Positions 1 through 53,579 of a stretch of 54,189 nucleotides of DNA are shown one piece after another. The notes under the pieces are model-generated. The model saw nothing but the letters and a program-made list of their open reading frames with translations. It ran no database searches and was not told where the DNA came from. Within the stretch, counting starts at the first letter, position 1. Every line of letters starts with the position of its first letter. Position numbers and translations under genes: made by a program. This DNA comes from an uncultured Gammaproteobacteria bacterium (GTDB lineage Bacteria; Patescibacteriota; Microgenomatia; Levybacterales; UBA12049): positions 1 to 54,189 of the forward strand of contig CAZTFV010000002.1 of assembly GCA_964613075.1 (NCBI GenBank), written 5' to 3'.

Positions 1-326
1 CACTGGGAAAAGTATACGACGTAGCAGTTGATATACGAGCAACCTCAAAGACCTTGGGACAGTGGTTCGGAGTTGAATTAAGTGAAGAGAATAAAAAAAT
101 GCTCTATGTCCCTGTCGGTTTTGCGCATGGGTTTGAGACAGTTTCTGACATAGCGGACTTACAGTATAGACAAACTGATTATTATACTCCGGAAGCAGAA
201 GGAGCTATCATGTGGAATGATCCGGATCTCAATATCCCCTGGCCGATACAAAATCCACTTCTTTCAGCCAAGGACCAGCACGGCATGAGCCTTGCGGAGT
301 ATAAGAGAAATCCTATTTTTTCTTGA
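1..326 (+). CDS. rmlC: dTDP-4-dehydrorhamnose 3,5-epimerase (RmlC), C-terminal ~107 aa; the 5' end lies outside the window
   Basis: Frame 3 is open from the window edge (LGKVYDVAVDIRATSKTLGQW precedes tracked ORF 54..326). RmlC cupin signatures: VDIR..S.T.G.W.GVELS, VPVGFAHGF, WNDPDLNIPWP, SAKD. TGA stop at 324-326. Confidence 0.85.
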   Translation, partial: LGKVYDVAVDIRATSKTLGQWFGVELSEENKKMLYVPVGFAHGFETVSDIADLQYRQTDYYTPEAEGAIMWNDPDLNIPWPIQNPLLSAKDQHGMSLAEYKRNPIFS

Positions 327-2388
327 AGCTCCCACGACCTAACGGTCGAGGATTCTCTTCATGCGCTTTGTCGGAGCTGAAATCCGCCGAAGCGGAAATT
401 GGCTCTGCATCCCACGATCTTACGATCGGGGATTTCCGCGAAGGCGGATTAAAAAAGAATAAAAACGGTAAAGATACCAGTGTAACACCGCTTACTACAA
501 GCCCCATATCAGCAAGCTGTTGTTTTTGGTACACTAGTCGGACCGAATATGTTCCTGATTTCGATAGCTGAAACGTCATGAGGGAATTATATGCATCTGG
601 TTCAGATTGTTTATCCGCCTCAAGTATCCAATGCTTATTATTCGCTTGCGAAAAAACCAGCTTATCCCCAATATGCACATTCTCAAGTGTAATTTCGTAT
701 TGTGTAGGGTTAATCCTTCTATATAATTGTATTCTGCATTTCCCAATGCACCAAAAAAGATCTTTTTGTTCAGCCACTTTAAATACCGATAAACCTTGAT
801 ATTTATACATTTCTTTAAGTGTTTTTTTACTGCTTAAAATGCTCTTCAACTCTTTGCTTTTTTTCTGGGTATACCCTTTCTCCTTAAGGGGGATCTCATG
901 TTGCTCATCTACTGGTATGACAATATAACCAATAGAATTGGTCTCAAGAATATCTGTCAAACTATCTCTTTTTAAACTTTTTATTACTGCTGATGCACTT
1001 GAAGCTTTAAAAAACTCTTCAAATGATACTGCAGGATGCGTTGCAGAGGAATAACTATACCTACTTACTGTTGGAATCCATAGCACACGCGAGAATTGAG
1101 CATCCTGTATCAGTTCATCTTTCAACTCTATGTATTCATCAGGAACGACACGAGGAAATACTCCGGTCTGTGCATGCTGAAAAATAGGAAACAGCAGGTA
1201 TCCCCAAAATAAGACAAATAGCCCAGACAGTAACACACCCCTTTTTTGTATCGTGAAAGGAATTAAATATGCATATGCTATTGCCACTAACACATACCAT
1301 TTTGTCGGATCTCGAAATAAGGAAAACCCCGGAATGAAGTTATATAACCACAAATAAAAGCTACCAAACGGTTCATTTGTTCCTTTTGCTAAAAACGCTC
1401 CGAATAAACCCAAAAATGCAAAAAAAATAATTGTTCTATTGTTAAATTGTTCCATTGTTAAATTGTTTTTGATTTTGGTATTTGAATTTTGTATTTGTTT
1501 CGGATTTCGATATTCGGATTTCGGATTTTTATTGAAAAGTAAACTACTAAACGCCAAAAGAGGAAGTATGAGAAACTCAGGCCTCATAAAATATACCTTC
1601 CCAAATATATTTTCCGGCCAGTTAGGGTGGAGAAGTGAAATCGAATTTTCAAGTTCTGCAAAACTTAAAAAATCAACTGAAACATCTCCTTTGCCAGATT
1701 CAAAAGTATCCTGAAGAGAAAATACCGAAGGTAAAATCCAAAACGAGTGAAGAAGAAAAACCGTTACCGCGCATATGACAAGATGTAGAACACGGGAAGA
1801 AAAGAATTGAAGAAAACTTTTTCTTGAAACATGAATATAACTAAAAACCAAGAACAAAAAGCAAACGAATACAAAAGACATATATGCCAATCGCACATCA
1901 AGAAAAGCTTGCAAAGCGAGAAAGAATCCTGTTATCAATGATAACTTAATATTAAAACGATTATTTTGTAACAATTTGATAGATAGGCCAAGCACAAGAG
2001 GAGTTAGTGAATAAGCAAGCATTACCCCAACCTGTCCGCCATGGATGATCATGAGAATATATGTATTGGAAATATAAATGAGAAGCGAAATGAAGAAAGT
2101 GTACCAATTTTTACCAAAAAGAGTTCGAACAAAAAAATAAATAGATATCCCTGAAAATAATACAAACAAAGAATAATAAACGATCGTTATCCAGAACCAA
2201 TCAAGTCCAAGACTATTATGTAAAAATCCAGCAGTTGAATAAATAAATGTTCTCAGCCAAAGAACACCTGAAATATCTTCTCCGAATCCATTCCCACGAG
2301 TAGAATCCCACACATATGGATAATAATAAAAATTCTGCAACTGTTCATTGAAAAAAAATGGTAAATCTTTGCTACTAAAAGAAATCAT
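313..2388 (-). CDS. Polytopic membrane protein, GT-C-like glycosyltransferase candidate (AftD/DUF3367-like); shorter paralog of 26859..30182
   Basis: 691-aa ORF with many hydrophobic spans, a large non-membrane C-terminal domain and a terminal TM anchor (GLVVSGVTLVSLPFLFFF). Shares SKD..F..Y.W and PGF[SA][LI]FR[DT]P.K motifs with the 1107-aa ORF. The last ~47 codons (313..456) run through the GC-rich hairpin element and may not be native coding sequence. Confidence 0.55.
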   Translation of the reverse strand: MISFSSKDLPFFFNEQLQNFYYYPYVWDSTRGNGFGEDISGVLWLRTFIYSTAGFLHNSLGLDWFWITIVYYSLFVLFSGISIYFFVRTLFGKNWYTFFISLLIYISNTYILMIIHGGQVGVMLAYSLTPLVLGLSIKLLQNNRFNIKLSLITGFFLALQAFLDVRLAYMSFVFVCFLFLVFSYIHVSRKSFLQFFSSRVLHLVICAVTVFLLHSFWILPSVFSLQDTFESGKGDVSVDFLSFAELENSISLLHPNWPENIFGKVYFMRPEFLILPLLAFSSLLFNKNPKSEYRNPKQIQNSNTKIKNNLTMEQFNNRTIIFFAFLGLFGAFLAKGTNEPFGSFYLWLYNFIPGFSLFRDPTKWYVLVAIAYAYLIPFTIQKRGVLLSGLFVLFWGYLLFPIFQHAQTGVFPRVVPDEYIELKDELIQDAQFSRVLWIPTVSRYSYSSATHPAVSFEEFFKASSASAVIKSLKRDSLTDILETNSIGYIVIPVDEQHEIPLKEKGYTQKKSKELKSILSSKKTLKEMYKYQGLSVFKVAEQKDLFWCIGKCRIQLYRRINPTQYEITLENVHIGDKLVFSQANNKHWILEADKQSEPDAYNSLMTFQLSKSGTYSVRLVYQKQQLADMGLVVSGVTLVSLPFLFFFNPPSRKSPIVRSWDAEPISASADFSSDKAHEENPRPLGRGSFKKK
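327..450 (-). other. GC-rich structured element: four short hairpins arranged as two tandem two-hairpin modules. Possible 3'-end RNA stabiliser, REP/MITE-like insertion or small structured RNA.
   Basis: Hairpins: 331-351 (cccacgacc/taac/ggtcgagg), 383-396 (tccgc/cgaa/gcgga), 411-431 (cccacgatc/ttac/gatcgggg), 435-448 (tccgc/gaag/gcgga). Outer helix agctcc 327-332 pairs with ggagct 373-378. Hairpins 1 and 3 differ by a compensatory pair change (cgacc:ggtcg vs cgatc:gatcg). Read on the minus strand the loops are GUUA, UUCG, GUAA and CUUC. The element is far more GC-rich than its flanks. Confidence 0.4.
1438..1530. repeat. Short direct and tandem repeats inside the CDS, encoding a low-complexity N/K-rich loop
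   Basis: attgttaaattgtt at 1438-1451 and again at 1454-1467 (16-nt period). tcggattt-type units occur near 1500-1507, 1514-1521 and 1521-1528. The encoded loop NKNPKSEYRNPKQIQNSNTKIKNNLTMEQFNN is absent at the equivalent position of paralog 26859..30182. Confidence 0.6.
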
Positions 2389-2400: not shown

Positions 2401-4065
2401 TTATTTGTTAAGCCCTCTCTGTATTTTCAAAGAGATGTTCGTCGTTTTTTTAGTCTCCGAATTATAAGAGAAAGCAGTCACTGTTTGGGGGTCTATTTTA
2501 TATTTTCTGAGATCTAGGGCCAAACGTCTGAAGTCACTATAATACCCAAACCCCGTACCATTTTTTTCTTTATATCCTTGATTTCCTAATTCCCAAAAGA
2601 AATTATCGTTTAAATAAGGAAGTGCTGATTCGTCACCTTTCTCAGTTCTCAGTACCAGAAGCATATATCCGATCCCCTGTTGAAAAGGCAAGGGATTGCC
2701 TTCCACGACAAAATCTCTATCACTTTCAATATAATAAATTTGCTTTTTACCTGATGGCATGTTAGTTGCGATAAATGCAAGAATAGGTTTTTGCACATCT
2801 GCTTTTTCTTTTTGGAAAGCAAGTTGCTTATGTATATACTTCACATGCCAAAATAAAAATAACACGAATATTAAAATGGGAATTATAACAGAGAGTTTAT
2901 AAAGATTAGAATCCCATTTCTTTTTCACAATAGATACAACCGTGTCTATAAAAATGCCCATAAAAAGCGCAAACGGTATTACGAAGGTATAGTAATACCG
3001 TGATTCTAAATATCCTGATGTTTTCTTAATTACGATAAACGGCAAAAAACTAAAAAGATATAATCCTGAAAATATCCAAAATTGCAACTTGTTTTTTCTT
3101 TTTATAAGGACAAAGAAGATTAATGGTGTAAAAATAAGCAAGGTAGCAAGAACAGATAGTAATTCAACAACAACTTTTTCTGATACCTGTGTAGCATATC
3201 CCACTTGTTCAAAATAAGGAAATATAGCAAAGGTAAACTTTTGTGAAAAGGGATAGAATATTGCATCAGGAATAAGTAATTGTGACAGTGTCTCAACAGG
3301 ATAAGAAATAGCCATCCACAGAAGTCTGTGGAAAATGTTTCCGTTAGAGCTTGAAACATAACCGGAGTAATCGGATCGTAGAAAAAATATATTGATAATT
3401 TTTAACGTAATATAAAGAGCCCCGCCTAACAAAAGGAGTAGAGCTGGCTTTAATGATCTGGACTTTTCTTTTTGATAACGTTTTAAGAGAAAATCCAAAA
3501 AAGGGAGAAAAATAAAAAGAAAAATTGCTGTCTCTTTAAAAGCTATTGAGATAAAAATACAAATTATTGACAAGAAATAAAAATATAACTTTTTCTTTTC
3601 TATAAACGCAAAATAACATATGATAGCTAACAAGATAGTTGTTGTTGAAGGAAGCGTACCAGTAGCTGTACCATACCAAATTATTGCCTGCTTTGAGGTA
3701 TCATTTATTAAGAAAAAAAGGGAAGCAATAAAAGCAATAAATTCTTTCTTAAGAATCTTTTTAAACAGTGTAAAAACGAGCGATGTGTTGAGTGCATGGA
3801 AAAAAATTGAAAATAAAAATAAAGGAAATGTGTTCAATCCGAAATATCCAAATAAGCCCATATTGACTAACCGAGCAAAAATCCTTGATTCGAATAAGAA
3901 TAATCCAATAAATGAAGTTTGAGTAATTAAATACCTCAGACCCTCTGACTTTATAAATCCAAGTGCATGCCATTCATCCTGCTGATATGCAGAAAAATAT
4001 AAATCTTTATATATAAGAAGAGTGAGAAGGAAAAAAAGTAAGAAGGAAAAAAAGAATCGTCTCAT
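2401..4065 (-). CDS. Polytopic membrane protein, GT-C-like (ArnT/PMT-style) glycosyltransferase candidate
   Basis: 554 aa with about ten or more hydrophobic spans. Acidic motif YQQDEWHALGF lies directly after TM1. Soluble C-terminal domain. ATGA-type 4-nt overlap with the upstream gene. Confidence 0.5.
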   Translation of the reverse strand: MRRFFFSFLLFFLLTLLIYKDLYFSAYQQDEWHALGFIKSEGLRYLITQTSFIGLFLFESRIFARLVNMGLFGYFGLNTFPLFLFSIFFHALNTSLVFTLFKKILKKEFIAFIASLFFLINDTSKQAIIWYGTATGTLPSTTTILLAIICYFAFIEKKKLYFYFLSIICIFISIAFKETAIFLFIFLPFLDFLLKRYQKEKSRSLKPALLLLLGGALYITLKIINIFFLRSDYSGYVSSSNGNIFHRLLWMAISYPVETLSQLLIPDAIFYPFSQKFTFAIFPYFEQVGYATQVSEKVVVELLSVLATLLIFTPLIFFVLIKRKNKLQFWIFSGLYLFSFLPFIVIKKTSGYLESRYYYTFVIPFALFMGIFIDTVVSIVKKKWDSNLYKLSVIIPILIFVLFLFWHVKYIHKQLAFQKEKADVQKPILAFIATNMPSGKKQIYYIESDRDFVVEGNPLPFQQGIGYMLLVLRTEKGDESALPYLNDNFFWELGNQGYKEKNGTGFGYYSDFRRLALDLRKYKIDPQTVTAFSYNSETKKTTNISLKIQRGLNK

Positions 4066-4790
4066 CTTTTTCTGAGCTTCACAAGTATTGTAAGCGCATG
4101 CGATCTGTCTAGCTGTGCAAGTATATCGGATAGCATTCCCCCAAAAGGATAAAATCCTGATGGTTTTTCAGCATCAATCTTAAATCCATGATACGTAAAT
4201 AATTTCAAGAGCGCTTTTCGCGCAGCAACGTTTATATGCTTATCCGTATTCCATTTCTTTCCTTTTTTTACTCCACTAGTCTGCTTGTGACAAAGGGGAT
4301 GGAAACCAACCGGATAATAGTCTGAGATATGAGGACCGGTCGAGGGTTGTTGCCCTAACGTTAATGCGACAATATTGTGCCATGACGCTAAGTTTTCTGT
4401 ACCAATAACTGCATACCCATCCCTTTTTAATATTCGATATATTTCTCTTAAAAAGATGTCTGTATCGTAAAGATGCTCAATTACTTCTATCCCTGTAACT
4501 ACATCAAACATTTGATCTTTGAATGGAAAACATTTATTAAGATCTCCTCTTTTGACCTCTATCCCTTTCTTTTTAGCTTTTCTAACATACGAAGAATCTC
4601 TATCTATACCGTAAATGTTATTAGTAGCAATTTTATTTGCAACTTTTAATGTTAATTCTCCATCAGCAGGTCCGCAATCGAGATATACTGCACCAGGTTT
4701 CCGCTCAATAAGAGAAAGGAGATTGGTTTCTCTTTTCTTTCCCGCCTCTTGTCCAACATTATAAAGATAATTTAACAATAACTGCTTCAT
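4062..4790 (-). CDS. Class I SAM-dependent methyltransferase
   Basis: Motif I VYLDCGPADG, then IYGIDRD and EVIEHLYD. 4-nt overlaps on both sides. Tandem paralog of 4787..5551 (shared E[VI]IEHLY.TD.F..EI.RILK..G...IGT.NL). Confidence 0.8.
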   Translation of the reverse strand: MKQLLLNYLYNVGQEAGKKRETNLLSLIERKPGAVYLDCGPADGELTLKVANKIATNNIYGIDRDSSYVRKAKKKGIEVKRGDLNKCFPFKDQMFDVVTGIEVIEHLYDTDIFLREIYRILKRDGYAVIGTENLASWHNIVALTLGQQPSTGPHISDYYPVGFHPLCHKQTSGVKKGKKWNTDKHINVAARKALLKLFTYHGFKIDAEKPSGFYPFGGMLSDILAQLDRSHALTILVKLRKR

Positions 4791-5551
4791 ATTTTTCTTG
4801 CTACCACCATAATATCCGAGGCTGTCGTAGGAAAATAGCTAAAAATACTATCTACAAGGCCATAACCGAAATTAAGCAATATATTTGAAGTAGCAAATTC
4901 AACACTGTTTCCGTAGACACGCTCTAGCGTAAATCCATAATACTTGAGCATATCCTTCAAAGCATGGACATTATAAACTCGTACGTGTCCAACTGGTTGA
5001 TTGCTGACAAATGTTCTAAGCCACCGCATGCCAAAATTTCTTTTCTTGACACTTACTTCCTGATAAAGAGGGTATATCCCGAGGAGAAAAATCAGACGGT
5101 TAAACCAAAACGAGAGATTGGGAGTTCCAATAATAAAAATTCCTCTTTTTTTGAGTATTCTTTTTATTTCCTCAATAAAAGTGTCAGTATTATACAAATG
5201 TTCTATGATTTCATTGGCAATGACCGCATCAAAAAATCCATCAGCAAAAGGGATATGCTTTTCAACATTTGCTACCTTACTTGGAATACCATTTCTTTGT
5301 GCCAGATGTACTCCCTTATGAGAAATATCTACTCCATAGAATTTTGATGGAATATGTTTCATTATTTCCACTCCGAGTCCGCCGTCTCCACATCCGACGT
5401 CAAGTATCACTGGTTGATTCTGTTTTTTTGAATTGAGAAAAGTATGGAGCGCTTTTATATATGCCTTGCTCCTCTTGGGATATATCTTTTCTCTTTCTTG
5501 AAGATCAACTTCTTTATATCTATCTGCTTGGTAATACTTATTTACGTCCAT
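4787..5551 (-). CDS. Class I SAM-dependent methyltransferase
   Basis: Motif I ILDVGCGDGGLG, then FYGVDIS and ANEIIEHLYN. Tandem paralog of 4062..4790. Confidence 0.8.
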   Translation of the reverse strand: MDVNKYYQADRYKEVDLQEREKIYPKRSKAYIKALHTFLNSKKQNQPVILDVGCGDGGLGVEIMKHIPSKFYGVDISHKGVHLAQRNGIPSKVANVEKHIPFADGFFDAVIANEIIEHLYNTDTFIEEIKRILKKRGIFIIGTPNLSFWFNRLIFLLGIYPLYQEVSVKKRNFGMRWLRTFVSNQPVGHVRVYNVHALKDMLKYYGFTLERVYGNSVEFATSNILLNFGYGLVDSIFSYFPTTASDIMVVARKI

Positions 5552-9653: not shown

Positions 9654-9668
9654 AAAAGAATTGCTATT

Positions 9669-9677
9669 TGCTATAAT
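9669..9677 (+). promoter_or_regulatory. Extended -10 promoter element TGcTATAAT for the plus-strand transketolase operon
   Basis: TATAAT at 9672-9677 is preceded by TGc. 13 nt separate it from the ATG at 9691, and no Shine-Dalgarno sequence is visible. Confidence 0.45.
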
Positions 9678-9690
9678 TACATGGAAAATA

Positions 9691-16523: not shown

Positions 16524-16526
16524 CCT

Positions 16527-40217: not shown

Positions 40218-40227
40218 ATATTATAAA

Positions 40228-41247: not shown

Positions 41248-41250
41248 ATA

Positions 41251-42423: not shown

Positions 42424-42811
42424 AATACGTATCTGGGTCTTCCGGATTGAAACTTTCGTTGAGATATGAAAGTAAATAGAGATCCTCTTTACCAATATTT
42501 GTTATTGCATGAAAGTAATTTGTCGGAATTTCAACTAATTTTAGATCGCGTTCATCAAGGATAATTTGTTCTTTTTCACTTCCATCCTTACTCCATACTT
42601 TGAGTAATCCTTTTCCTTTTAGTACAATATACCATTCTCTTTTCCTCCTATGGTAGTGCTTTCCCTTGATTATACCAGGCTTTGCTACAGTTACAAGAAG
42701 ATGACCAAATAGTGGATTGCTTACGTCTTCAACTCGAATCAATTCTGCAAGCCATCCCCTATAATCTTTTTTTATTTCCAGTTTTTTCGTTCTGAGTAAT
42801 TTTTTTTTCAT
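42416..42811 (-). CDS. fnlB: Stand-alone cupin corresponding to the C-terminal (C3-epimerase) domain of CapF/FnlB
   Basis: DYRGWLAELI, VAKPGIIKGKHYHRRKREWYIVLKGKG, EIPTNYFHAITNIG, FNPEDPDTYY. All align by eye to the CapF cupin domain. ATGA overlap with the preceding SDR gene. Confidence 0.7.
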   Translation of the reverse strand: MKKKLLRTKKLEIKKDYRGWLAELIRVEDVSNPLFGHLLVTVAKPGIIKGKHYHRRKREWYIVLKGKGLLKVWSKDGSEKEQIILDERDLKLVEIPTNYFHAITNIGKEDLYLLSYLNESFNPEDPDTYYE

Positions 42812-47709: not shown

Positions 47710-48510
47710 TTATGGAATATTAATACGGAAGTTTAACTCAGGATCAAACTTCCATTTCCGTCTGTTACCACGGTCATAATAATGCAAAATTTTCAATCTA
47801 TAGAATACAGCAATAGTATCCCGTAACATAAAAAAGATAGTGTTCCAAAAATTTTTTGAGGTTATTGAAGATACGCCAGTAAAATCAAGTTCGATGGGAG
47901 CTTCAAATATTCGTTTGTATCCTAAGTAATGCGCAACAGCAATAATTTCTATGTCAAACGCATACGTTTTTACCAACAGTCGGGGAAGGACATCTTCTAA
48001 TACTTTTTTTCTGAAAAATTTCATACCCACTTGTGTGTCTCGAACTGACAAGCCGAATAGCAACCTTACTAATGTCCTATACCCCCAAGAAAGGATTTTT
48101 CTCGTAACTGGATAGTTAACTTTTGATACAGGGTGTAATTTACTTCCTACAATAATATCGGCATTATACCACTCAAAATGCTCCATGAGCATCGAGAGCC
48201 CATTCGGATTTATGTCCATCCCGGCGTCAATGAAGGCGATAATATCTCCTTTTGCCTTTGCCATCCCAAATCTGACAGCATGCCCTTTTCCTTTGTTGAC
48301 GTTGTATCCAGTTGCAACAATTTTGTTAAATTTCATTTTTTGGACGTTCTGCAAAGTCTTATCAACGTTACCATCGACAACAAGAATGATTTCATAATCA
48401 TATCGGAGTTGATCCAGGACGTGTTTAATGCGTATTAAATCATCTTTAATTGTTTTTTCCTGTTTGTATGCAGGAATAATGACGGAGATAAGATGCATCT
48501 TCTTTTTCAT
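47710..48510 (-). CDS. GT2, Alg5/Dpm1-like polyprenyl-phosphate glycosyltransferase candidate
   Basis: ISVIIPAYKQ, ILVVDGNVDKT, NKGKGHAVRFGM, FIDAGMD, RDTQVGMKFF. Confidence 0.7.
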   Translation of the reverse strand: MKKKMHLISVIIPAYKQEKTIKDDLIRIKHVLDQLRYDYEIILVVDGNVDKTLQNVQKMKFNKIVATGYNVNKGKGHAVRFGMAKAKGDIIAFIDAGMDINPNGLSMLMEHFEWYNADIIVGSKLHPVSKVNYPVTRKILSWGYRTLVRLLFGLSVRDTQVGMKFFRKKVLEDVLPRLLVKTYAFDIEIIAVAHYLGYKRIFEAPIELDFTGVSSITSKNFWNTIFFMLRDTIAVFYRLKILHYYDRGNRRKWKFDPELNFRINIP

Positions 48511-48525: not shown

Positions 48526-49773
48526 CTATTTCCTGTCCCAAACATAGGGGTAGTATAGCAAAAGGGAAATAAGGAGTACAAATGATACGACAATAGAAAC
48601 CTGAATTACCTGAGACAGGTCTTTATGAAAAAAATAGATGCCAAGTATTTGCGCTATCGCTGCGGAAACAATAAAAAAATTTTGCCTCGTTTTATGAATG
48701 GAGAGATAAAAATTCGCCATAAGAACACAAAGTGAGTACATTCCCAGAAAAATTCCCATCATGCCTAAAAGCGGTGCAACCCGTAGATAGTTTTTGCCCG
48801 GTAGAAGATAAATAATTACATCGGGAAAAAGAAAGTAAATAGCGGTGATCGTTGCTGCACCCAGGAGCGTAACAATGAGGCTTAGCAATAAATAATGAGC
48901 ATATTTATCGCCTCTTGCATGGGTTTCAGAAACGAAAGGAAACAACACTGCAGTTACTGGTGACACGGCAAAATAAATAACTTTTCCGAGTATTGATAAA
49001 ACAGCATAATCGCCAGACTCATTTCCCGGAAAAAAATAACGCACCAACATAATATCAGCCGAATACAACGAAGTAACTGATAAAATACTAATAAAAACAG
49101 GTAACGCATATTTGTACAACGCTCTCTGATCAGTAAATGCTTCAGGGTTTGAGGTATTTTTTTTAAAGAAAAAATGGAAGGGTAAATAGCCAACGATCCC
49201 GCTAAGAGCTATCGCCGCAAAAGCCCCGGTTGTTTTTAATCCGATAAGTACCAATACTATGCCGAAAGCTAATTTGCTGAAAGATTCTACAATGTTTGAA
49301 ATAGCAAGAATAAAAAAGTTAGTTACTCCCTGCAGAATACTCCGCCCGAAAACCACGAAAACGCCGATAAAAAAATTCAGCAGGAGAAGAAGTATCATTA
49401 TATTCGACGATAAGTGGAGGAGATTGGTGATAAATGGAGAAAACAATAAAATGGTCAACGCACCTATAGCGCTATATATAACAATGAGCTTTTTCATATA
49501 ATAATAAAGAGCGTGAATTGCAGAAAGATTCCCCCGGCCTTTGTACGTTGATATAAATTTAACAACCACGAGAGAAAGAGTGGCAAGAGGCACAGATAAA
49601 ATATAGAAGAAAGCTAGTAAACTTTCTAATTCGCCAAGTAACGAAGCAGGTTTTAGCATTCGCGCCATCACTAAATGGAAAAGATAGTTACCAAAACTCG
49701 TGATTGCTGAAGCAGTATACATCCAAATTGCAGAGCTGATAAACCGATTTGAAAAGAACTTTTTAACCATCAA
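48526..49773 (-). CDS. MOP-superfamily polysaccharide/oligosaccharide flippase (Wzx-like)
   Basis: 415 aa with about 12 hydrophobic spans. N-terminal pattern SSAIWMYTASAITSFGNYLFHLVMARMLKPASLLGE is typical of Wzx/polysaccharide biosynthesis proteins. Confidence 0.6.
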   Translation of the reverse strand: MMVKKFFSNRFISSAIWMYTASAITSFGNYLFHLVMARMLKPASLLGELESLLAFFYILSVPLATLSLVVVKFISTYKGRGNLSAIHALYYYMKKLIVIYSAIGALTILLFSPFITNLLHLSSNIMILLLLLNFFIGVFVVFGRSILQGVTNFFILAISNIVESFSKLAFGIVLVLIGLKTTGAFAAIALSGIVGYLPFHFFFKKNTSNPEAFTDQRALYKYALPVFISILSVTSLYSADIMLVRYFFPGNESGDYAVLSILGKVIYFAVSPVTAVLFPFVSETHARGDKYAHYLLLSLIVTLLGAATITAIYFLFPDVIIYLLPGKNYLRVAPLLGMMGIFLGMYSLCVLMANFYLSIHKTRQNFFIVSAAIAQILGIYFFHKDLSQVIQVSIVVSFVLLISLLLYYPYVWDRK

Positions 49774-50830
49774 TCTCTCCTACTGATTTGTATACATCAA
49801 CCGTATCCAGGGCAGTCTTTTTCCAGCTGAATTTACGATAGTGTTCTAAGCCCTTTGCTGACAAAGTTTTTTGTAACGCTGCGCTTAAGAACACTTCCTC
49901 AATCCCTGCTGCGATACTATCAATATCATACGCGTCAACAAAAAATGCAGCATCTCCGGCAACTTCCGGAATTGATCCTTCTTTGGATGTTACAACCGGA
50001 CAGCCACACGCCATAGCCTCAAGAATCGGCAGGCCAAAACCCTCATATAAGGACGGCATAACAAAAACCGTTGCAGCATTGTAGAGAGATACAAGATCCT
50101 CTGCTGGAACAAATCCCAGTCGAATTATTGAAGTATCATTCTCCGCTAATGTTTGAGCCTCTATCAAGTCTTTATTCCACATATTATGTACATCGATATT
50201 TTTATCGAGTAACGCCTTGCCTGTCATTACCAAAGGTATTCTAATTTTTTTAACTGCTTTTATAAGTCTTGGCAAATTTTTATTCCACGTAGCATCTCCA
50301 ACATACAAGGCAAACCTATCGGGGAGGCCATACTTATCATGGAGTGTCTTTTTTGTCTTCCTCTTATCAACTTGCCTAAATTCCTCACCCGCTGCAAGAT
50401 AGACTCTATGAACCTTTGTATCGGGCACTCCAACAAAACGAATGATGTCTTTTTTTGACGATTCAGAATCAGTAATAATTGCGTCAGATCTGACAAGGGC
50501 TCTTTTTTGTAATAACCAACGAATATTCCCTTTTATCCCAGGCGGGAAATGCTTTGGAAAAACGAGTGGCGTTAGGTCATGGACAGTGACGATTTGTTTC
50601 CTTTTTTTACGAAAAGGGAGTGTTGGGAAAAAAGGCTCAAAATACGGAAAATGAACAATCGTTGCGTCTTTGACTATTGCTTCTCCCCGTTGAAAAAACG
50701 AATACTGATGCTGAGGAAAAAATTGCAAAAGCGCGTCGCGTAAATGCTCAAGGTAAAAGCCAGTGCCGCGCACTCTGTGTTGCAGGAAATGCCCTGTCGT
50801 TAACGGAGATATATCAATTGCAATATTCAT
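49763..50830 (-). CDS. GT4 (GT-B fold) glycosyltransferase
   Basis: VMPSLYEGFGLPILEAMACGCPVVTSKEGSIPEVAGDAAFFVD (EX7E). DNA is visibly more GC-rich than most of the window. Confidence 0.85.
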   Translation of the reverse strand: MNIAIDISPLTTGHFLQHRVRGTGFYLEHLRDALLQFFPQHQYSFFQRGEAIVKDATIVHFPYFEPFFPTLPFRKKRKQIVTVHDLTPLVFPKHFPPGIKGNIRWLLQKRALVRSDAIITDSESSKKDIIRFVGVPDTKVHRVYLAAGEEFRQVDKRKTKKTLHDKYGLPDRFALYVGDATWNKNLPRLIKAVKKIRIPLVMTGKALLDKNIDVHNMWNKDLIEAQTLAENDTSIIRLGFVPAEDLVSLYNAATVFVMPSLYEGFGLPILEAMACGCPVVTSKEGSIPEVAGDAAFFVDAYDIDSIAAGIEEVFLSAALQKTLSAKGLEHYRKFSWKKTALDTVDVYKSVGEIDG

Positions 50831-52464
50831 CCTGTTTTCGTGAAGCTATGCCTCCTAACCATGAAAACCATCAGAACAATAAACGCTGAGATACTCATGA
50901 ATATCGACACCTGTCTTACTATTGTATCAGTAAACCTTGCCTCAACAACATGGTCTCCTTTCGGCAGGGTAAATGCAATTATGCCATTTGAATATGTTAT
51001 TTGCGTCGGATTGTTATCGACAGACACCTCCCAACCTGGGAAGTACGCGACGTTTAATGTCGCATCTGTCGCAACTCCTGATGTAATCGTGAATTTATAG
51101 TATTGTGCGTTTTTCGTATTTGAAACGATTTGCTTTTCCTTTGCATCGCTAAGAACGATTTTGTCTTTCTGCTTTCTAAGATTTTTGTCAAACCATATTG
51201 TATTAAAGTAATTTCCCGGACTGTTTGTTCCGTCGATAAAATTACTCCTTGTGAGGTAATAGGCGTCGTTTCGATTGTGATAGTGGGCTGGCTTTGCATA
51301 TCCTATTGACAGTAAAATTGCGATGACGGCAAATAACAAAGGCAACGGTTTATTTCTCCATAAAAGAGCTATTGTCCCTGCTAAAAACGACGTAATAAGC
51401 ATCATAAGACTGAGGAATCGCCAAGGGAATTGAAAATAATCAATAATAGGAATTGCTTTCCATAATGGATATGAAACACGAAGCAGTAAGAAAAAAGTCA
51501 TAATAAACCACAGGAGCTGAAAGCCAACTGTTCGCGCTATGCCCTTATCACGTTTTAGAAAAATCAAAAAGCAGACGAACGCAAGAAGAATTGCAAGAAG
51601 ATTTGCTATTCCTATCTGAAATGACATTTGTCCTCCCAAACTACCACCCGAGAACCCTGTTCCCCAGGATGGTATCAATAATTGAAACAGCTCCGGAAAA
51701 TTATCTTTTACATTATATATTTGCAAACCGGTGACAAATTGTCTCTCAAAAAGCGCCGGCAGCCAAAAAATTGCAGATAAACCGACTCCGAGCACCAATA
51801 TACTAGTATATTGGTAAAACATTTTTCTCTTTTCTTTTGAAAGAAAAATCAGTAGGGAAATATAAGAAATGCCATAGAAAAAAAACATCGCTGCCAAAAT
51901 ATTGTGGGAAAAGATCGTTGCGGCAAGAAATACACTTGAGAGAACTAGGTATTTTTGCCCCCCGTCAATGCTGTACCTCTTTATAGACCAGAGAAATCCT
52001 GGGAAAAAAGCAAGAGCCCAGACCTCGCCCACAGATCCTCTAACATATATGTCAACAAACCGATATGGGGTAACTGTATAAAAGATTGATGAAATAACTC
52101 CTCCTGTGTTTCCCCAATATTCTCTTGACCAAAGATAAAAAAATAGCGCCCCCAGCATGGTGGCAAAGAAAAGATTTAGTTTAAACGCATCAATAAAACT
52201 AAATCCGAAGAAATGAAAAAAAGAAGTAGCATAGTTTGGAAACGGGTAAACAAAGTTAAACAATGGTACACCGTATCCATTATTCAAATCAGGCGCCCAT
52301 CTGGGATATATAGCCCCGCTTCGTAAGACTTTGTCAAACTGATAAAACCGGATCACATGATACTCTCCGTCATGCGTTGGAGGCAAGCCGGGACGCAGTA
52401 ATGCGTGCCCGGCAATAAAAGCAACAATCAAACACGTAATTATCGGAAGTAAACTTTTCGCCAT
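50827..52464 (-). CDS. Polytopic membrane protein, GT-C-like candidate with C-terminal beta-rich domain and TM anchor
   Basis: 545 aa. TM1 is followed by PPTHDGEYHVIRF..RSGAIYPRWAPDLNNGYGVPLFNFVYP. C-terminal part has NVAYFPGWEVSVDN, then the anchor VSIFMSISAFIVLMVFMV. Confidence 0.5.
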   Translation of the reverse strand: MAKSLLPIITCLIVAFIAGHALLRPGLPPTHDGEYHVIRFYQFDKVLRSGAIYPRWAPDLNNGYGVPLFNFVYPFPNYATSFFHFFGFSFIDAFKLNLFFATMLGALFFYLWSREYWGNTGGVISSIFYTVTPYRFVDIYVRGSVGEVWALAFFPGFLWSIKRYSIDGGQKYLVLSSVFLAATIFSHNILAAMFFFYGISYISLLIFLSKEKRKMFYQYTSILVLGVGLSAIFWLPALFERQFVTGLQIYNVKDNFPELFQLLIPSWGTGFSGGSLGGQMSFQIGIANLLAILLAFVCFLIFLKRDKGIARTVGFQLLWFIMTFFLLLRVSYPLWKAIPIIDYFQFPWRFLSLMMLITSFLAGTIALLWRNKPLPLLFAVIAILLSIGYAKPAHYHNRNDAYYLTRSNFIDGTNSPGNYFNTIWFDKNLRKQKDKIVLSDAKEKQIVSNTKNAQYYKFTITSGVATDATLNVAYFPGWEVSVDNNPTQITYSNGIIAFTLPKGDHVVEARFTDTIVRQVSIFMSISAFIVLMVFMVRRHSFTKTG

Positions 52465-53579
52465 GGTCTGTGTAGTAATACAACTCCCAATCCAATAATA
52501 AGCGTCACAAACGTCAAGACTATTTTAAGAAGCGGAGTAAAGCCAAAATAATTTCCTGTCAGCATGAAAGGGATATATCGAAGGAGAAGACTGAATGAAA
52601 ATAACAGGGAAATAAGCAAAAGGCGTTTGTTCTCAGGGATCAGAAATGTAAAAGATAAAAACCAGATAGCATACCAGGGATATATTTCCTCACGAAAAGC
52701 TGATAGAAAAAAGATAAAATACATTGATAAACAGGAATAAAAGTACATGTTGTCTTTCTTAATCTTCTGCGTAAGAAGAGTTCTCCAAATCACATAAACA
52801 AAAACTGGCAAAAGAAAAATTGTCGCAAATTTAATAAATACTGAAGGCATGAAAAAGATGAGGGCAAGTAAAATTCGTCTGTTCATTAACAGATATAAGG
52901 CCAACAAGGCAAAAAACATCATGACAATATCGTTGTGTCCGCCTATGAGTGTTTCAATCACAATTAACGGATTCAGGCCGAATAACACAACTGATAGTAC
53001 ACTGTTTGTCATTCTCCAAATAAGGTATGTTGTCGCTACATAGAAAAGTGCCGTAAATAACTTAAAACCAAAAAGTATCAAAAGGAAATTTCCAAAACCG
53101 AGAAAATACGGCATTCCCGTAAGAAGTATCCACGCCGGTCCATAGAGCGCTACTTTGTTCGCCGCGCGCGTAAAGGCGAGCATCGGCTCGCCTAAAAACT
53201 CAATCGGCATCACAATATACGGATTTTCCTTATAGAAAAAGAGTACCTTTGACGTTGCGATATAGTTGAAAATGTCATAGGAAAGCATTGCGGGATAAGA
53301 AAAAAACAATATGCCAATGGTTATCCCAATGAGTATTTTCACCTCTTTTAAACCGAGCTGTTTTTTATGTAGAAGACGAAGAAACGTAAGGTAGTAAGCA
53401 AATGACAAAAAAATGATAACAACAAATACCGTTGTCGTTATTGTCCTTTCTTGAAAGGCAAAACCTGTATAGAGTTTTTTAAGATAAAACAAGTTCGGAT
53501 CAATAAAAGCATAAGAAAATAACGTCACAAAAAACAAGAAGATTGCGTAGCTTACAAATAATGTTGGCTTTACAAGCAT
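52440..53579 (-). CDS. Polytopic membrane protein, GT-C-like candidate (MptB/PimE/DUF2029-like)
   Basis: 379 aa, almost entirely hydrophobic. Loop motif YDIFNYIATSKVLFFYKENPY resembles the D..Y......NPY loop of polyprenyl-phosphate-mannose-dependent mannosyltransferases. Confidence 0.45.
   Translation of the reverse strand: MLVKPTLFVSYAIFLFFVTLFSYAFIDPNLFYLKKLYTGFAFQERTITTTVFVVIIFLSFAYYLTFLRLLHKKQLGLKEVKILIGITIGILFFSYPAMLSYDIFNYIATSKVLFFYKENPYIVMPIEFLGEPMLAFTRAANKVALYGPAWILLTGMPYFLGFGNFLLILFGFKLFTALFYVATTYLIWRMTNSVLSVVLFGLNPLIVIETLIGGHNDIVMMFFALLALYLLMNRRILLALIFFMPSVFIKFATIFLLPVFVYVIWRTLLTQKIKKDNMYFYSCLSMYFIFFLSAFREEIYPWYAIWFLSFTFLIPENKRLLLISLLFSFSLLLRYIPFMLTGNYFGFTPLLKIVLTFVTLIIGLGVVLLHRPWRKVYFR

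What the first reader, a model, noticed from the sequence alone, without database searches (positions are those of the whole stretch)
313..53579. Window-wide glycan factory dominated by GT-C-like membrane proteins and four polyprenyl-phosphate-sugar synthase-like GT2s
Nine large polytopic proteins look like GT-C glycosyltransferases: 313..2388, 2401..4065, 12424..13845, 21743..23191, 26859..30182, 32229..34004, 33979..36594, 50827..52464 and 52440..53579. A tenth large polytopic protein, 7510..9522, has no recognisable family motif and I treat it as unknown.

- Each candidate has many TM spans. Several carry an acidic motif immediately after TM1: QQDEWH, AQDDF, PQDDEH, THDGEY.
- Several have large extracytoplasmic C-terminal domains, and three end in a terminal TM anchor.
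- They sit with four GT2s of the ArnC/GtrB/Dpm1/Alg5 type (11469..12437, 21045..21746, 24179..24859, 47710..48510). That type normally charges polyprenyl phosphate with a sugar for use outside the membrane.
- Also present: a Wzx-like flippase, three GT4s plus a GT4-like GT-B enzyme, three other GT2s, six methyltransferases and several NDP-sugar tailoring enzymes.
- Two proteins resemble AftD and one resembles MptB/PimE.

The logic therefore recalls mycobacterial LM/LAM/arabinogalactan assembly, but in an AT-rich, apparently CPR-like genome.

I could not recognise an initiating phosphoglycosyltransferase, a Wzy/Wzz pair, an ABC exporter or a nucleotidyltransferase. The acceptor (lipid, protein or wall polymer) is unknown.
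Basis: partly seen in the sequence, partly recalled or inferred. Interest (0 to 1): 0.75.

Follow-up and report, generated by a model that had tools for sequence, protein, structure and literature searches.

The report
Ten GT-C glycosyltransferases in one island
This whole 54-kb contig from a tiny-genome CPR bacterium (Microgenomates/Levyibacteriota-like) is one sugar-polymer workshop, with ten membrane glycosyltransferases of the GT-C type and four enzymes that load sugars onto a lipid carrier. It points to an elaborate, still unknown surface glycan, but it is built from known kinds of parts.

Summary
The window is 99% coding, and 47 of its 48 ORFs of at least 100 aa have a glycan-related or accessory assignment.

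- **GT-C proteins:** all nine proposed ones are supported, and the tenth (7510..9522, left as unknown) also has a GT-C fold. Its model matches STT3, AglB, PglB and AftA.
- **AftD relatives:** 26859..30182 is a true AftD relative (Foldseek E 1.8e-17). 313..2388 is a shorter AftD/MmpA-like paralog without TM1.
- **Other families:** five proteins are PMT_2-like, one is PTPS_related, and one is GT87/PIG-M-like.
- **Catalytic motif:** where homologues were available (eight of ten families), an acidic residue after TM1 is invariant; in J, E43 is conserved in at least 90%.
- **Small GT2s:** all four match lipid-phosphate-sugar synthases best (GtrB 2e-74; DPMS 1e-16, 1e-13, 3e-9). Two lack a canonical DxD motif.
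- **Conservation:** a 17-gene core is collinear in a Levyibacteriota genome. GT-C arrays surround AftD-like genes in about 80 Microgenomates loci.

Most likely mechanism: a lipid-linked glycan is built in the cytoplasm and flipped by Wzx. GT-C enzymes then extend and decorate it outside, using polyprenyl-phosphate sugars.

The acceptor, the sugars and the product are unknown. I rate it a new variant of a known kind, of moderate interest.

The parts
1..326 (+). C-terminal fragment of dTDP-4-dehydrorhamnose 3,5-epimerase (RmlC), cut by the contig start
   Evidence: The translation reads ...VPVGFAHGFETVSD...IMWNDPDLNIPWP..., recognised from memory as the RmlC family. No profile search was run on this fragment.
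313..2388 (-). A: short AftD/MmpA-like GT-C paralog, 691 aa. It has no TM1, a conserved N-terminal Asp (D8) and a C-terminal TM anchor.
   Evidence: hhalign against the E family gives 99.5-99.9% probability, E 4e-23 to 1e-34. There is a weak NCBIfam MmpA hit at 3e-7. Subfamily N-termini are shown.
2401..4065 (-). B: PMT_2-like GT-C, 554 aa, with an invariant QDEW after TM1
   Evidence: Family of 21 sequences, 3 of the 20 homologues with precomputed PF13231. hhalign B-D 96.8%, B-G 99.5%, B-C 97%.
4062..5551 (-). Two class I SAM methyltransferases (4062..4790 and 4787..5551)
   Evidence: Pfam Methyltransf_11/23/31, E 1e-16 to 1e-20
5538..6515 (-). GT2 with two C-terminal TM helices; not GtrB-like by sequence
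   Evidence: PF00535 1.5e-25. TM spans at 266-284 and 300-318. NCBIfam matches cover the N-terminus only.
6512..7411 (-). Class I SAM methyltransferase, syntenic with the J family
   Evidence: Methyltransf_23 2e-27. A methyltransferase sits next to J homologues in L083-L085.
7510..9522 (-). J: GT-C-fold protein of a small family with no Pfam model, 670 aa, about 12 TM
   Evidence: AF2 model pLDDT 69, pTM 0.72. The top 14 Foldseek PDB hits are all GT-C: STT3, AglB, PglB, AftA, DPY19 and EmbA. E43 and D183 are conserved in at least 90% of 15 sequences.
9661..11465 (+). Split transketolase pair 1 (N-terminal and C-terminal subunits)
   Evidence: Transketolase_N 2e-38; Transket_pyr 9e-35 plus Transketolase_C
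11469..12437 (+). GtrB/ArnC/PgfS-type polyprenyl-phosphate sugar synthase: GT2 domain, DGD motif, C-terminal TM hairpin
   Evidence: PDB GtrB 5EKP 2e-74 and ArnC 1.5e-43, both near full length. NCBIfam PgfS 2e-69. TM spans.
12424..13845 (+). C: PMT_2-like GT-C with AQDDF after TM1; overlaps the GtrB-like gene by 14 nt
   Evidence: hhalign against the B family 97% over 385 columns. DDF is conserved in the L003 homologue.
13848..15604 (-). Split transketolase pair 2
   Evidence: Pfam
15597..20088 (-). Sugar-tailoring block: SDR (15597..16523), HD + histidine-phosphatase fusion (16527..17966), RmlB-like 4,6-dehydratase (17968..18951) and APH-type kinase (19006..20088)
   Evidence: Pfam. NCBIfam dTDP-glucose 4,6-dehydratase 1.6e-86.
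20075..21001 (-). Sulfotransferase_3 family protein
   Evidence: PF13469 3.6e-13. 72% identical in L003.
21045..21746 (-). Small GT2, probably a polyprenyl-phosphate sugar synthase; overlaps D by 4 nt; non-canonical 'TDGQVD' motif
   Evidence: PDB GtrB 1e-11 and DPMS 3e-9 over residues 5-225. NCBIfam matches are weak and mixed. Motif.
21743..23191 (-). D: PMT_2 family GT-C with a conserved Y-R-D in the first loop
   Evidence: PF13231 5.5e-8, above the gathering score. Alignment.
23161..24174 (+). Membrane-anchored calcineurin-like phosphoesterase
   Evidence: PF00149 1e-14. TM span at 28-46.
24179..24859 (-). DPMS/AglJ-like small GT2 with a DDD motif and no TM
   Evidence: PDB DPMS 5MLZ 1e-16 over residues 1-207. 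NCBIfam AglJ 2e-29, dolichyl-phosphate hexose transferase 5e-17, PpgS 2e-14.
24920..25450 (+). Secreted free-standing DUF5667 protein
   Evidence: PF18915 4e-10. Aligns to E-family profile positions 667-805.
25455..26510 (+). SDR epimerase/dehydratase
   Evidence: Pfam
26507..26869 (-). 120-aa small membrane protein with 3-4 TM; overlaps the 3' end of E; function unknown
   Evidence: A positional counterpart of 118 aa exists in L003.
26859..30182 (-). E: AftD-like GT-C, 1107 aa. It has an invariant H36-D37, a DUF5667 helical insert, beta-sandwich CBM-like domains and a C-terminal TM.
   Evidence: Many homologues carry PF11847. Profile against PDB hits AftD at 5.5e-5. AF2 pLDDT 86. Foldseek AftD 1.8e-17, probability 1.0.
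30175..31188 (-). FkbM-type methyltransferase
   Evidence: PF05050 5e-14
31192..32232 (-). GT2 with a C-terminal TM; conserved next to E homologues
   Evidence: Pfam. Hits in 60 of 82 loci.
32229..34004 (-). F: GT-C of the Glyco_transf_22/PMT_2 type with an invariant D-E-H
   Evidence: PF03901 4e-5 and PF13231 6e-4. hhalign D-F 94%. Motif.
33979..36594 (-). G: PMT_2-like GT-C with a C-terminal F5/8 type C (discoidin, lectin-like) domain
   Evidence: hhalign against the B family 97.8-99.5%. PF00754 5.5e-13 at residues 616-728.
36591..39109 (-). Methyltransferase (36591..37532), GH130-like beta-mannoside phosphorylase-like protein (37516..38487) and methyltransferase (38474..39109)
   Evidence: Pfam. 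NCBIfam beta-1,2-mannobiose phosphorylase 7e-32.
39084..43614 (-). UDP-L-FucNAc-type pathway with one GT4: FnlC/WecB-like 2-epimerase (39084..40217), FnlA (40228..41247), GT4 (41251..42495), and a split FnlB/WbcJ made of a cupin (42416..42811) and an SDR (42808..43614)
   Evidence: NCBIfam FnlA 2e-127, wecB 3e-77, WbcJ 6e-16 and 3e-27. Pfam.
43611..47706 (-). SDR (43611..44579), GT2 (44548..45675), GT4 (45554..46684) and SDR (46678..47706)
   Evidence: Pfam. NCBIfam.
47710..48510 (-). Small GT2, DPMS/PpgS-like, with a non-canonical 'IDAGMD' motif; 55-65% identical in several other loci
   Evidence: PDB DPMS 1e-13 over residues 8-210. NCBIfam ArnC 9e-14 and PpgS 4e-12. Conservation.
48526..49773 (-). 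Wzx-type flippase
   Evidence: PF01943 6e-10. Polytopic.
49763..50830 (-). GT4
   Evidence: Glycos_transf_1 4e-31
50827..52464 (-). H: PTPS_related (GT-C clan) protein with THDGEY after TM1 and a C-terminal TM
   Evidence: PF10131 1e-14, above the gathering score. PF10131 belongs to clan CL0111 (PMC7801869).
52440..53579 (-). I: GT87/GT50-like (PimE/MptB/PIG-M type) GT-C, 379 aa, with an invariant D102
   Evidence: NCBIfam MptA 5e-6. Family profile against PDB hits PIG-M at 1.3e-7. 10 of 49 family members hit Pfam GT87.
53570..54097 (-). Second secreted free-standing DUF5667 protein
   Evidence: PF18915 4e-6. 30% identical to the first copy.

Best explanation
The contig is a cell-envelope glycan biosynthesis island of a Microgenomates (Levyibacteriota-like) CPR bacterium. 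It works by the two-compartment logic of polyprenyl-phosphate-sugar-dependent glycosylation.

1. **Precursors (inferred from family matches).** Cytoplasmic enzymes make unusual nucleotide sugars. These include a dTDP-6-deoxyhexose branch (RmlB-like, RmlC fragment), a UDP-L-FucNAc-type branch (FnlA, split FnlB, FnlC) and several further SDRs. The two split-transketolase pairs, a kinase and a phosphatase fusion may also feed in.
2. **Cytoplasmic assembly (inferred).** Three GT4s and three membrane-tethered GT2s assemble a lipid-linked oligosaccharide. Six SAM methyltransferases and a sulfotransferase modify it, and Wzx flips it. The primer enzyme is encoded off-contig.
3. **Donor charging.** Four GtrB/DPMS-type GT2s load single sugars onto polyprenyl phosphate. 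This is shown by homology for 11469..12437 and well supported for 24179..24859. It is probable for 21045..21746 and 47710..48510.
4. **Extracytoplasmic transfer.** Ten GT-C enzymes on the outer face transfer these lipid-linked sugars to elongate, branch and decorate the polymer, each using a conserved Asp or Glu in the first outside loop. Fold and motif are shown; donor and acceptor are inferred.

Lectin-like C-terminal domains favour a polysaccharide or lipoglycan acceptor over protein. These are the CBM-like beta-sandwiches in E and the discoidin domain in G.
For: **GT-C identity of all ten**
- Pfam hits above or near the gathering score for D, F and H.
- E: PF11847 in homologues, AftD as the top PDB match by profile (5.5e-5) and by fold (1.8e-17).
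- A: 99.9% hhalign probability to E.
- B, C and G are linked to D at 95-99.5%.
- I: GT87 and PIG-M matches.
- J: GT-C-only top fold hits.

**Acidic first-loop residues** are invariant or near-invariant across homologues.

**GT2 donors**
- Matches: GtrB 2e-74, DPMS 1e-16, DPMS 1e-13, and GtrB 1e-11 with DPMS 3e-9.
- These alignments are near full length. For the other three GT2s, only the N-terminal ~100 residues match those models.

**Gene coupling.** Two GT2/GT-C pairs overlap: 11469..12437 with C, and D with 21045..21746.

**Conservation**
- 17 genes are collinear with Levyibacteriota JAYRIM01 at 36-72% identity.
- The core of G, GT2, E, F, DUF5667 and the DPMS-like GT2 recurs in L025 and L067.
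- 2-5 GT-C genes lie within about 23 kb in most of the 80 E-centred loci.

**Lectin-like domains** are seen.
Against: - No biochemistry exists. No sugar, donor lipid or acceptor is identified.
- No initiating phosphoglycosyltransferase, polymerase, ligase or known flippase for polyprenyl-phosphate monosaccharides (GtrA-type) is in the window.
- GT2s 21045..21746 and 47710..48510 lack a canonical DxD motif and have only moderate, mixed matches.
- A lacks TM1, so its topology and activity are uncertain.
- J's fold assignment rests on a medium-confidence model (pLDDT 69) and Foldseek E-values of only about 3e-4.
- Whether the ten enzymes act on one product or on several is not shown.
Confidence: 0.7

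Rival explanations
1. The GT-C enzymes are mainly protein O-glycosyltransferases (PMT / Pgf / TMTC-like). They would decorate S-layer proteins, pilins or adhesins with sugars from polyprenyl-phosphate donors, rather than build a polysaccharide.
For: - Five proteins are PMT_2-like.
- The best NCBIfam match of 11469..12437 is PgfS (2e-69). From memory, PgfS is the GT2 of the Streptococcus mutans Pgf protein-glycosylation system, which also uses GT-C partners and an epimerase.
- J's nearest folds include oligosaccharyltransferases.
Against: - No candidate Ser/Thr-rich substrate protein is encoded in the window.
- E is AftD-like with CBM-like domains, and G has a discoidin domain. Both features suit glycan acceptors.
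- J has no WWDxG motif.
- The Wzx, GT4 and GT2 set indicates a lipid-linked oligosaccharide.
Confidence: 0.2
2. The island is a collection of independent Gtr/CsbB-YfhO-type three-component modules. Each module (GT2 + flippase + GT-C) would add one side-chain sugar to pre-existing wall polymers such as teichoic-acid-like polymers or peptidoglycan-linked glycans. It would not be a single assembly line.
For: - Two GT2/GT-C pairs are translationally coupled.
- Modules are shuffled between genomes. C sits elsewhere in L003, and A is next to E in 44 loci but 24 kb away here.
- YfhO-family genes appear in related contigs.
Against: - There are only four GT2 donors for ten GT-C proteins.
- No GtrA-type flippase is present.
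- The long co-directional operon from 26.5 to 54.1 kb mixes GT-C, Wzx, GT4 and tailoring genes, and its core order is conserved. That suggests one coordinated pathway.
Confidence: 0.25
3. Several of the 'GT-C-like' proteins are not transferases of lipid-phosphate monosaccharides. They could instead be polymerases or ligases for the Wzx-flipped unit, or non-catalytic scaffold or transport partners like mycobacterial MmpA.
For: - No Wzy or ligase is present, although Wzx is.
- A lacks TM1 and matches the MmpA model weakly. MmpA's own role is unresolved.
- J resembles en-bloc oligosaccharyltransferases.
Against: - The conserved first-loop acidic residues are kept in every family where homologues were available, including the A subfamily's N-terminal G-D.
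- Profile matches are to transferase families. No Wzy_C or O-antigen ligase hit was found.
Confidence: 0.15

Closest known systems
Mycobacteriales LM/LAM/arabinogalactan assembly (AftD, MmpA, PimE/MptA/MptB, Ppm1)
   Same: - It uses many GT-C enzymes fed by polyprenyl-phosphate sugars made by GT2 synthases.
- E shares the AftD fold and architecture: GT-C module, beta-sandwich lectin-like domains and a terminal TM.
- A long AftD-type protein plus a short MmpA-type paralog occur together.
- A GT87-like enzyme (I) is present.
- Methyltransferases are interleaved with the transferases.
   Different: - Identity to AftD is only 10-12%.
- There are no decaprenyl-phospho-arabinose genes and no Emb, PimA or PimB homologues in the window.
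- Here the genes are packed into one island in a roughly 1-Mb-genome CPR lineage.
- E carries a DUF5667 helical insert, which was not examined in AftD.
- No ACP partner is known for E.
Gtr / ArnC-ArnT / CsbB-YfhO / GacI-GacL / PgfS-PgfM three-component glycosylation systems
   Same: - A GtrB-type GT2 (11469..12437; 2e-74 to GtrB, 2e-69 to PgfS) is translationally coupled to a GT-C (C).
- A second GT2/GT-C overlap exists (21045..21746 with D).
   Different: - No GtrA-type flippase is present.
- There are ten GT-C enzymes and only four synthases.
- The modules are embedded in a Wzx/GT4/GT2 pathway rather than acting as a stand-alone accessory module.
Wzx/Wzy-dependent O-antigen or capsule loci
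   Same: Wzx flippase, GT4 and GT2 transferases, and nucleotide-sugar tailoring genes including an FnlA/B/C-type set.
   Different: - No Wzy, Wzz, initiating phosphoglycosyltransferase or ligase is in the window.
- GT-C genes occupy 35% of the DNA.
Archaeal/eukaryotic dolichol-phosphate pathways (DPMS, AglJ, ALG/PIG mannosyltransferases, STT3/AglB)
   Same: - 24179..24859 and 47710..48510 match DPMS and AglJ best.
- F matches Glyco_transf_22 (ALG9-like).
- I matches PIG-M.
- J's nearest folds are STT3, AglB and PglB.
   Different: - The host is bacterial.
- J has no WWDxG motif.
- All similarities are remote.

Membership tests
GT-C glycosyltransferase superfamily (Pfam clan CL0111) | Polytopic membrane protein with 7 or more TM helices and a conserved N-terminal membrane module | tested here: met
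   8-12 predicted TM spans in all ten proteins. The AF2 models of E and J show the helical bundle.
GT-C glycosyltransferase superfamily (Pfam clan CL0111) | Significant profile or fold similarity to established GT-C families | tested here: met
   - D: PMT_2.
- F: GT22/PMT_2, borderline.
- H: PTPS_related, a clan member.
- E: AftD.
- A linked to E; B, C and G linked to D.
- I: GT87/PIG-M.
- J: by fold only, E about 3e-4.
GT-C glycosyltransferase superfamily (Pfam clan CL0111) | Conserved acidic catalytic residue in the first extracytoplasmic loop | tested here: met
   - Invariant D/E motifs in the B, D, E, F, G and I families and in both C sequences.
- J: E43 in at least 90% of sequences.
- A subfamily: N-terminal G-D.
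- H: motif present, but no homologue alignment was available.
- Outside location is inferred from positively charged N-termini and, for E, from AftD similarity. It was not measured.
GT-C glycosyltransferase superfamily (Pfam clan CL0111) | Uses a polyprenyl-phosphate- or diphosphate-linked sugar donor | not testable with these tools
   Needs enzymology. The only indirect support is co-location with GtrB/DPMS-like GT2s.
AftD (PF11847, GT-C_AftD) - protein E | Sequence-profile and structural match over the GT-C module and the soluble domain | tested here: met
   - Three colinear HMM stretches against 6W98.
- Foldseek 1.8e-17, TM-score 0.47/0.41.
- PF11847 in many family members and an NCBI name to that effect.
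- E itself scores no Pfam hit at E <= 0.1.
AftD (PF11847, GT-C_AftD) - protein E | Arabinofuranosyl transfer from decaprenyl-phospho-arabinose | tested here: not met
   No UbiA-type DPPR synthase or DprE1/E2 homologue is among the 48 ORFs. This covers the window only, not the genome. E should be called AftD-like, not an arabinofuranosyltransferase.
AftD (PF11847, GT-C_AftD) - protein E | Essential active-site residues K39, D41, E251, K361, D474 (from the paper read) | tested here: inconclusive
   An invariant H36-D37 lies in the same region as D41. Extrapolating the HMM alignment puts them one residue out of register. The other residues could not be mapped.
GtrB/ArnC/DPMS polyprenyl-phosphate sugar synthases (GT2) | GT-A domain whose best and near full-length matches are to characterised lipid-phosphate sugar synthases | tested here: met
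   - 11469..12437: GtrB 2e-74.
- 24179..24859: DPMS 1e-16.
- 47710..48510: DPMS 1e-13.
- 21045..21746: GtrB 1e-11 and DPMS 3e-9.
- Control: the other three GT2s match those models only over about 100 N-terminal residues.
GtrB/ArnC/DPMS polyprenyl-phosphate sugar synthases (GT2) | Canonical DxD metal-binding motif | tested here: inconclusive
   DGD95 in 11469..12437 and DDD87 in 24179..24859. The other two have 'TDGQVD' (21045..21746) and 'IDAGMD' (47710..48510), which are non-canonical.
GtrB/ArnC/DPMS polyprenyl-phosphate sugar synthases (GT2) | Transfer of sugar to polyprenyl phosphate | not testable with these tools
   Needs an enzyme assay.
GT87 / PimE-MptB type - protein I | Profile match to GT87 or related mannosyltransferases | tested here: met
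   - 10 of 49 family members hit PF09594.
- The family profile hits PIG-M at 1.3e-7.
- I itself hits TIGR03459 (MptA) at 5e-6, far below the cut-off, and gets no Pfam hit of its own.
Wzx/Wzy-dependent pathway | Initiating phosphoglycosyltransferase, Wzy polymerase and chain-length regulator | tested here: not met
   None is among the window ORFs; only Wzx is present. The contig edge cuts an rml gene, so absence from the genome is not shown.
Gtr-type three-component system | GtrA-family small flippase | tested here: not met
   No PF04138 hit. The only small membrane protein (26507..26869) has no family match.

The most novel reading that the evidence does not exclude
Microgenomates, despite roughly 1-Mb genomes, may build a mycobacteria-style complex lipoglycan or wall heteropolysaccharide with a lineage-wide GT-C toolkit. 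This toolkit would include:
- a conserved AftD-like plus TM1-less MmpA-like pair;
- a new GT-C family (J) tied to a methyltransferase and a split ThDP enzyme that makes an unusual sugar;
- DUF5667 as a dedicated extracytoplasmic accessory module.

The product would be a heavily methylated or sulfated glycan coat that is central to CPR envelope biology and host attachment.
Probability: 0.25. Interest if true: 0.75.

Novelty: new variant of a known kind. Interest (0 to 1): 0.5.

Why it matters
CPR/Patescibacteria have minimal genomes and largely unknown envelopes. Yet this lineage devotes an entire 54-kb contig to extracytoplasmic glycan assembly, and GT-C genes fill 35% of it. For scale, related complete genomes are about 0.9-1.1 Mb.

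If the product is a lipoglycan or wall polysaccharide, it would be a major surface determinant that has not been described. It could matter for attachment to hosts, phage defence or survival.

The island also supplies divergent, compact relatives of AftD and MmpA, whose roles in mycobacteria are still debated. It adds at least one GT-C family (J) with no existing profile model.

The literature I could search mentions only raw counts of glycosyltransferases in such genomes.

Tried and rejected
- **Single-sequence PDB searches.** E and A gave nothing useful. Profiles were needed.
- **B and J family profiles against PDB.** Neither found a relevant solved structure by sequence. J was resolved only by fold search.
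- **Exact-sequence lookup of E.** It failed, probably because of a different start call. The contig was identified through J's 100%-identical record, P0141, on a 54,189-nt NCBI contig. Cluster lookup gave no accession or name.
- **J as an oligosaccharyltransferase.** Not adopted: J has no WWDxG motif, and AftA gives the best TM-score.
- **The 120-aa ORF 26507..26869 as a GtrA or GacJ equivalent.** There is no family match, so it stays unknown.
- **A's missing TM1 as an assembly or annotation artefact.** Rejected. Homologues in L019, L029 and many other loci start at the same point, bounded by upstream stops.
- **Literature on transketolases in glycan loci.** Nothing relevant was found.
- **tRNA scan.** None found.
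- **First hhalign batch.** It timed out and was rerun.

Full report
**Observation**

The window is a complete 54,189-nt contig. A protein 100% identical to part of ORF 7510..9522 is on record from an NCBI contig of exactly that length.

48 ORFs of at least 100 aa tile 99% of the window. GC is 0.32-0.42.

Pfam and NCBIfam scans of every ORF show that all but one have a glycan-related or accessory assignment:
- ten large polytopic proteins;
- seven GT2s and three GT4s;
- a Wzx flippase;
- six methyltransferases;
- eight SDR-type sugar-nucleotide enzymes;
- a non-hydrolysing UDP-GlcNAc 2-epimerase and a cupin;
- a sulfotransferase, an APH-type kinase and an HD/histidine-phosphatase fusion;
- a membrane-anchored metallophosphoesterase;
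- a GH130-like protein;
- two split-transketolase pairs;
- two DUF5667 proteins.

The exception is a 120-aa membrane protein with no family match.

**The ten polytopic proteins**

I label them as follows:

| Label | Coordinates |
|---|---|
| A | 313..2388 |
| B | 2401..4065 |
| C | 12424..13845 |
| D | 21743..23191 |
| E | 26859..30182 |
| F | 32229..34004 |
| G | 33979..36594 |
| H | 50827..52464 |
| I | 52440..53579 |
| J | 7510..9522 |

*Direct Pfam hits.* Only a few proteins hit directly:
- D hits PMT_2 at 5.5e-8, above the gathering score.
- F hits Glyco_transf_22 at 4e-5, just under the cut-off, and PMT_2 at 6e-4.
- H hits PTPS_related at 1e-14. PF10131 is a listed member of the GT-C clan CL0111 (PMC7801869).

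*E.*
- E has more than 100 homologues, all Patescibacteria where the source gives a name. Many carry PF11847 (GT-C_AftD), and one is named an alpha-(1->3)-arabinofuranosyltransferase family protein.
- A 46-sequence profile finds AftD (6W98/6WBX) as the top PDB hit, at E 5.5e-5 with three colinear stretches.
- The AlphaFold model (pLDDT 86, pTM 0.82) hits AftD alone at E 1.8e-17 and probability 1.0.
- Its soluble part has beta-sandwich, lectin-like domains and ends in a TM helix, as in AftD.

*A.*
- A is a paralog of E: hhalign gives 99.5-99.9% probability and E down to 1e-34.
- The alignment starts after E's TM1.

*B, C, D, F and G.*
- B belongs to a small family of 21 sequences. Three of the 20 homologues are pre-annotated PMT_2.
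- Profile-profile comparison ties these proteins together:

| Pair | hhalign probability |
|---|---|
| B-G | 99.5% |
| B-C | 97% |
| B-D | 96.8% |
| C-G | 95.5% |
| D-F | 94.4% |
| D-E | 92.3% |

*I.*
- I belongs to a large family, with 3,362 representative hits.
- 10 of 49 sampled members hit Pfam GT87. The remaining member hits include other GT-C clan families (PMT_2, PIG-U).
- The family profile hits GPI mannosyltransferase PIG-M at 1.3e-7.

*J.*
It has no sequence-detectable family.
- Its model (pLDDT 69, pTM 0.72) gives GT-C enzymes as its first 14 Foldseek hits. These are STT3, AglB, PglB, AftA (TM-score 0.46/0.50), DPY19 and EmbA.
- The first non-GT-C hit has probability 0.35.

All ten are therefore GT-C-like. 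GT-C genes occupy 35% of the window.

**Catalytic motif**

Each protein has a positively charged N-terminus, then TM1, then an acidic motif. These motifs are conserved:
- QDEW is invariant in B (21/21).
- H36-D37 is invariant in E (46/46).
- D-E-H occurs in F (7/7).
- Y-[RK]-D occurs in D (5/5), a Glu in G (6/6) and DDF in C (2/2).
- D102 is invariant in I (49/49).
- E43 and D183 are conserved in at least 90% of J sequences.
- A's subfamily keeps an N-terminal G-D-[WF]-x-[FY]-[FY]-W motif even without TM1.

Outside location is inferred from the positive-inside rule and from AftD similarity. It was not measured.

**The four small GT2s**

| GT2 | Best matches | Motif and architecture |
|---|---|---|
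| 11469..12437 | GtrB 2e-74, ArnC 1.5e-43, PgfS 2e-69, all near full length | DGD; C-terminal TM hairpin |
| 24179..24859 | DPMS 1e-16 over residues 1-207; AglJ 2e-29 | DDD |
| 47710..48510 | DPMS 1e-13; PpgS 4e-12 | non-canonical 'IDAGMD' |
| 21045..21746 | GtrB 1e-11; DPMS 3e-9 over its full length | non-canonical 'TDGQVD' |

- The first is unambiguous, the second well supported, and the last two probable.
- As an internal control, the other three GT2s match these models only over about 100 N-terminal residues.
- Two of the synthase-like genes overlap a GT-C gene: 11469..12437 overlaps C by 14 nt, and D overlaps 21045..21746 by 4 nt.

**Precursor genes**

- 40228..41247 is FnlA-like (2e-127).
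- 42416..42811 (cupin) plus 42808..43614 (SDR) together match WbcJ/FnlB as a split enzyme.
- 39084..40217 is a WecB/FnlC-type epimerase.
- 17968..18951 is RmlB-like.
- Bases 1..~326 (+) encode the C-terminus of RmlC, cut by the contig end.

The 'missing' nucleotidyltransferase and primer may therefore simply be off-contig.

**Conservation**

- A Logan contig (L001) is 84-94% identical over window positions 16-34 kb.
- Levyibacteriota JAYRIM01 (L003) is collinear for 17 genes, window positions 20-40 kb, at 36-72% identity.
- A core recurs in L025 and L067: G, GT2 (31192..32232), E, F, DUF5667 and the DPMS-like GT2.
- Most of the 80 loci fetched around E homologues carry 2-5 GT-C-like genes within about 23 kb. 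The named loci span Levyi-, Gottesman-, Woese-, Roizman-, Davies-, Shapiro- and Dojkabacteria. The density of about 1-2 per 10 kb is similar to the window's 1.85. This sample is biased, because every locus contains an E homologue.
- Contigs carrying J homologues also carry YfhO and Mannosyl_trans2 GT-Cs.

GT-C arrays are thus a trait of the lineage and not an oddity of this contig.

**Mechanism**

Family matches support the best explanation given above: a two-compartment pathway with nucleotide-sugar tailoring, cytoplasmic assembly, modification, Wzx flipping, four GT2 donor synthases and ten GT-C enzymes outside.
- **Shown here:** folds, motifs, gene coupling and synteny.
- **Inferred:** donors, acceptor, order of steps, and whether there is one product or several.

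Lectin-like domains in E and G favour a glycan acceptor.

Three rivals remain open: protein O-glycosylation, independent side-chain modules, and non-transferase roles for A or J.

**Comparison with known systems and novelty**

The logic matches mycobacterial LM/LAM/AG assembly and Gtr/ArnT/YfhO-type systems.

Membership in the arabinan pathway is not supported. There are no DPA-synthesis, Emb or Pim genes in the window, and identity to AftD is only 10-12%.

The parts are known kinds. What is new:
- the packing of ten GT-C enzymes from at least four families into one island;
- the CPR host;
- a GT-C family with no profile model (J);
- a TM1-less AftD/MmpA-like subfamily that usually sits directly after the AftD-like gene (44 of 82 loci);
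- the DUF5667 insert.

The literature I could search mentions only counts of glycosyltransferases in such genomes.

I rate this a new variant of a known kind, of moderate interest.

Noticed in passing
window 313..2388 and 26859..30182; loci L005-L081: In 44 of 82 related loci, an A-type gene (a short AftD-like paralog, mostly lacking TM1) lies directly downstream of the E-type AftD-like gene. In this window the two are 24 kb apart. This mirrors the AftD + MmpA pairing in the Mycobacteriales tmaT locus, where MmpA is a partial homologue of AftD's first 11 TM helices.
   Followed up: partly
window 24920..25450 (+), 53570..54097 (-), and residues ~666-798 of E (26859..30182): DUF5667 (PF18915) occurs twice as a free-standing secreted protein. 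It also occurs as a helical insert in the extracytoplasmic domain of the AftD-like family (hhalign 91%, shared 'LPDSxFY' motif). DUF5667 genes also flank J homologues in L083 and L084. It is a likely accessory module of these GT-C enzymes; its function is unknown.
   Followed up: partly
window 7510..9522 with 6512..7411 and 9661..11465; L083 7881-11986; L084 7237-11335: J-family genes are consistently next to a class I methyltransferase and a split ThDP (transketolase-like) enzyme. In other contigs that enzyme is a short 240 + 166 aa version. This suggests a dedicated module that makes and transfers an unusual sugar. The role of the two full split-transketolase pairs in the window is unexplained.
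   Followed up: partly
window 26507..26869 (-); L003 13218..13574: A 118-120-aa protein with 3-4 TM overlaps the stop codon of the AftD-like gene in both genomes (24% identity over 79 aa). It has no family match. It could be a small subunit or a flippase candidate.
   Followed up: partly
window 1..326 (+): The C-terminal fragment of RmlC is cut by the contig start and converges on the 3' end of A. The dTDP-rhamnose genes, and probably a nucleotidyltransferase, therefore continue off-contig.
   Followed up: partly
window 42416..43614 (-): The FnlB/WbcJ-type reductase is split into a separate cupin ORF (131 aa) and SDR ORF (268 aa). Pfam labels the cupin 'Polysacc_synt_C'.
   Followed up: no
window 37516..38487 (-): A cytoplasmic GH130-like protein (beta-1,2-mannobiose phosphorylase model, 7e-32) sits inside a biosynthetic operon and is 62% identical in L003. 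It could be a phosphorylase or a GH130-fold mannosyltransferase.
   Followed up: no
window 16527..21001 (-): An HD + histidine-phosphatase fusion, an APH-type kinase and a sulfotransferase sit together. The sulfotransferase is 72% identical in L003. This hints at phosphorylated or sulfated sugars in the product.
   Followed up: no
window 21045..21746 and 47710..48510: Both weaker synthase-like GT2s share a D-[GA]-x-[VM]-D variant in place of DxD. 47710..48510 is one of the most conserved proteins of the island across distant loci (55-65% identity).
   Followed up: no
loci L004, L005, L009-L011 and others: Many records that encode clear Microgenomates-type AftD-like loci are titled 'uncultured Gammaproteobacteria bacterium' (TPA co-assembly MAGs). 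This is probably a default or wrong taxonomic label.
   Followed up: no
window 7510..9522: The public annotation (P0141, 639 aa) starts J 31 residues later, which removes TM1. Homologues of 644-693 aa support the longer start.
   Followed up: partly
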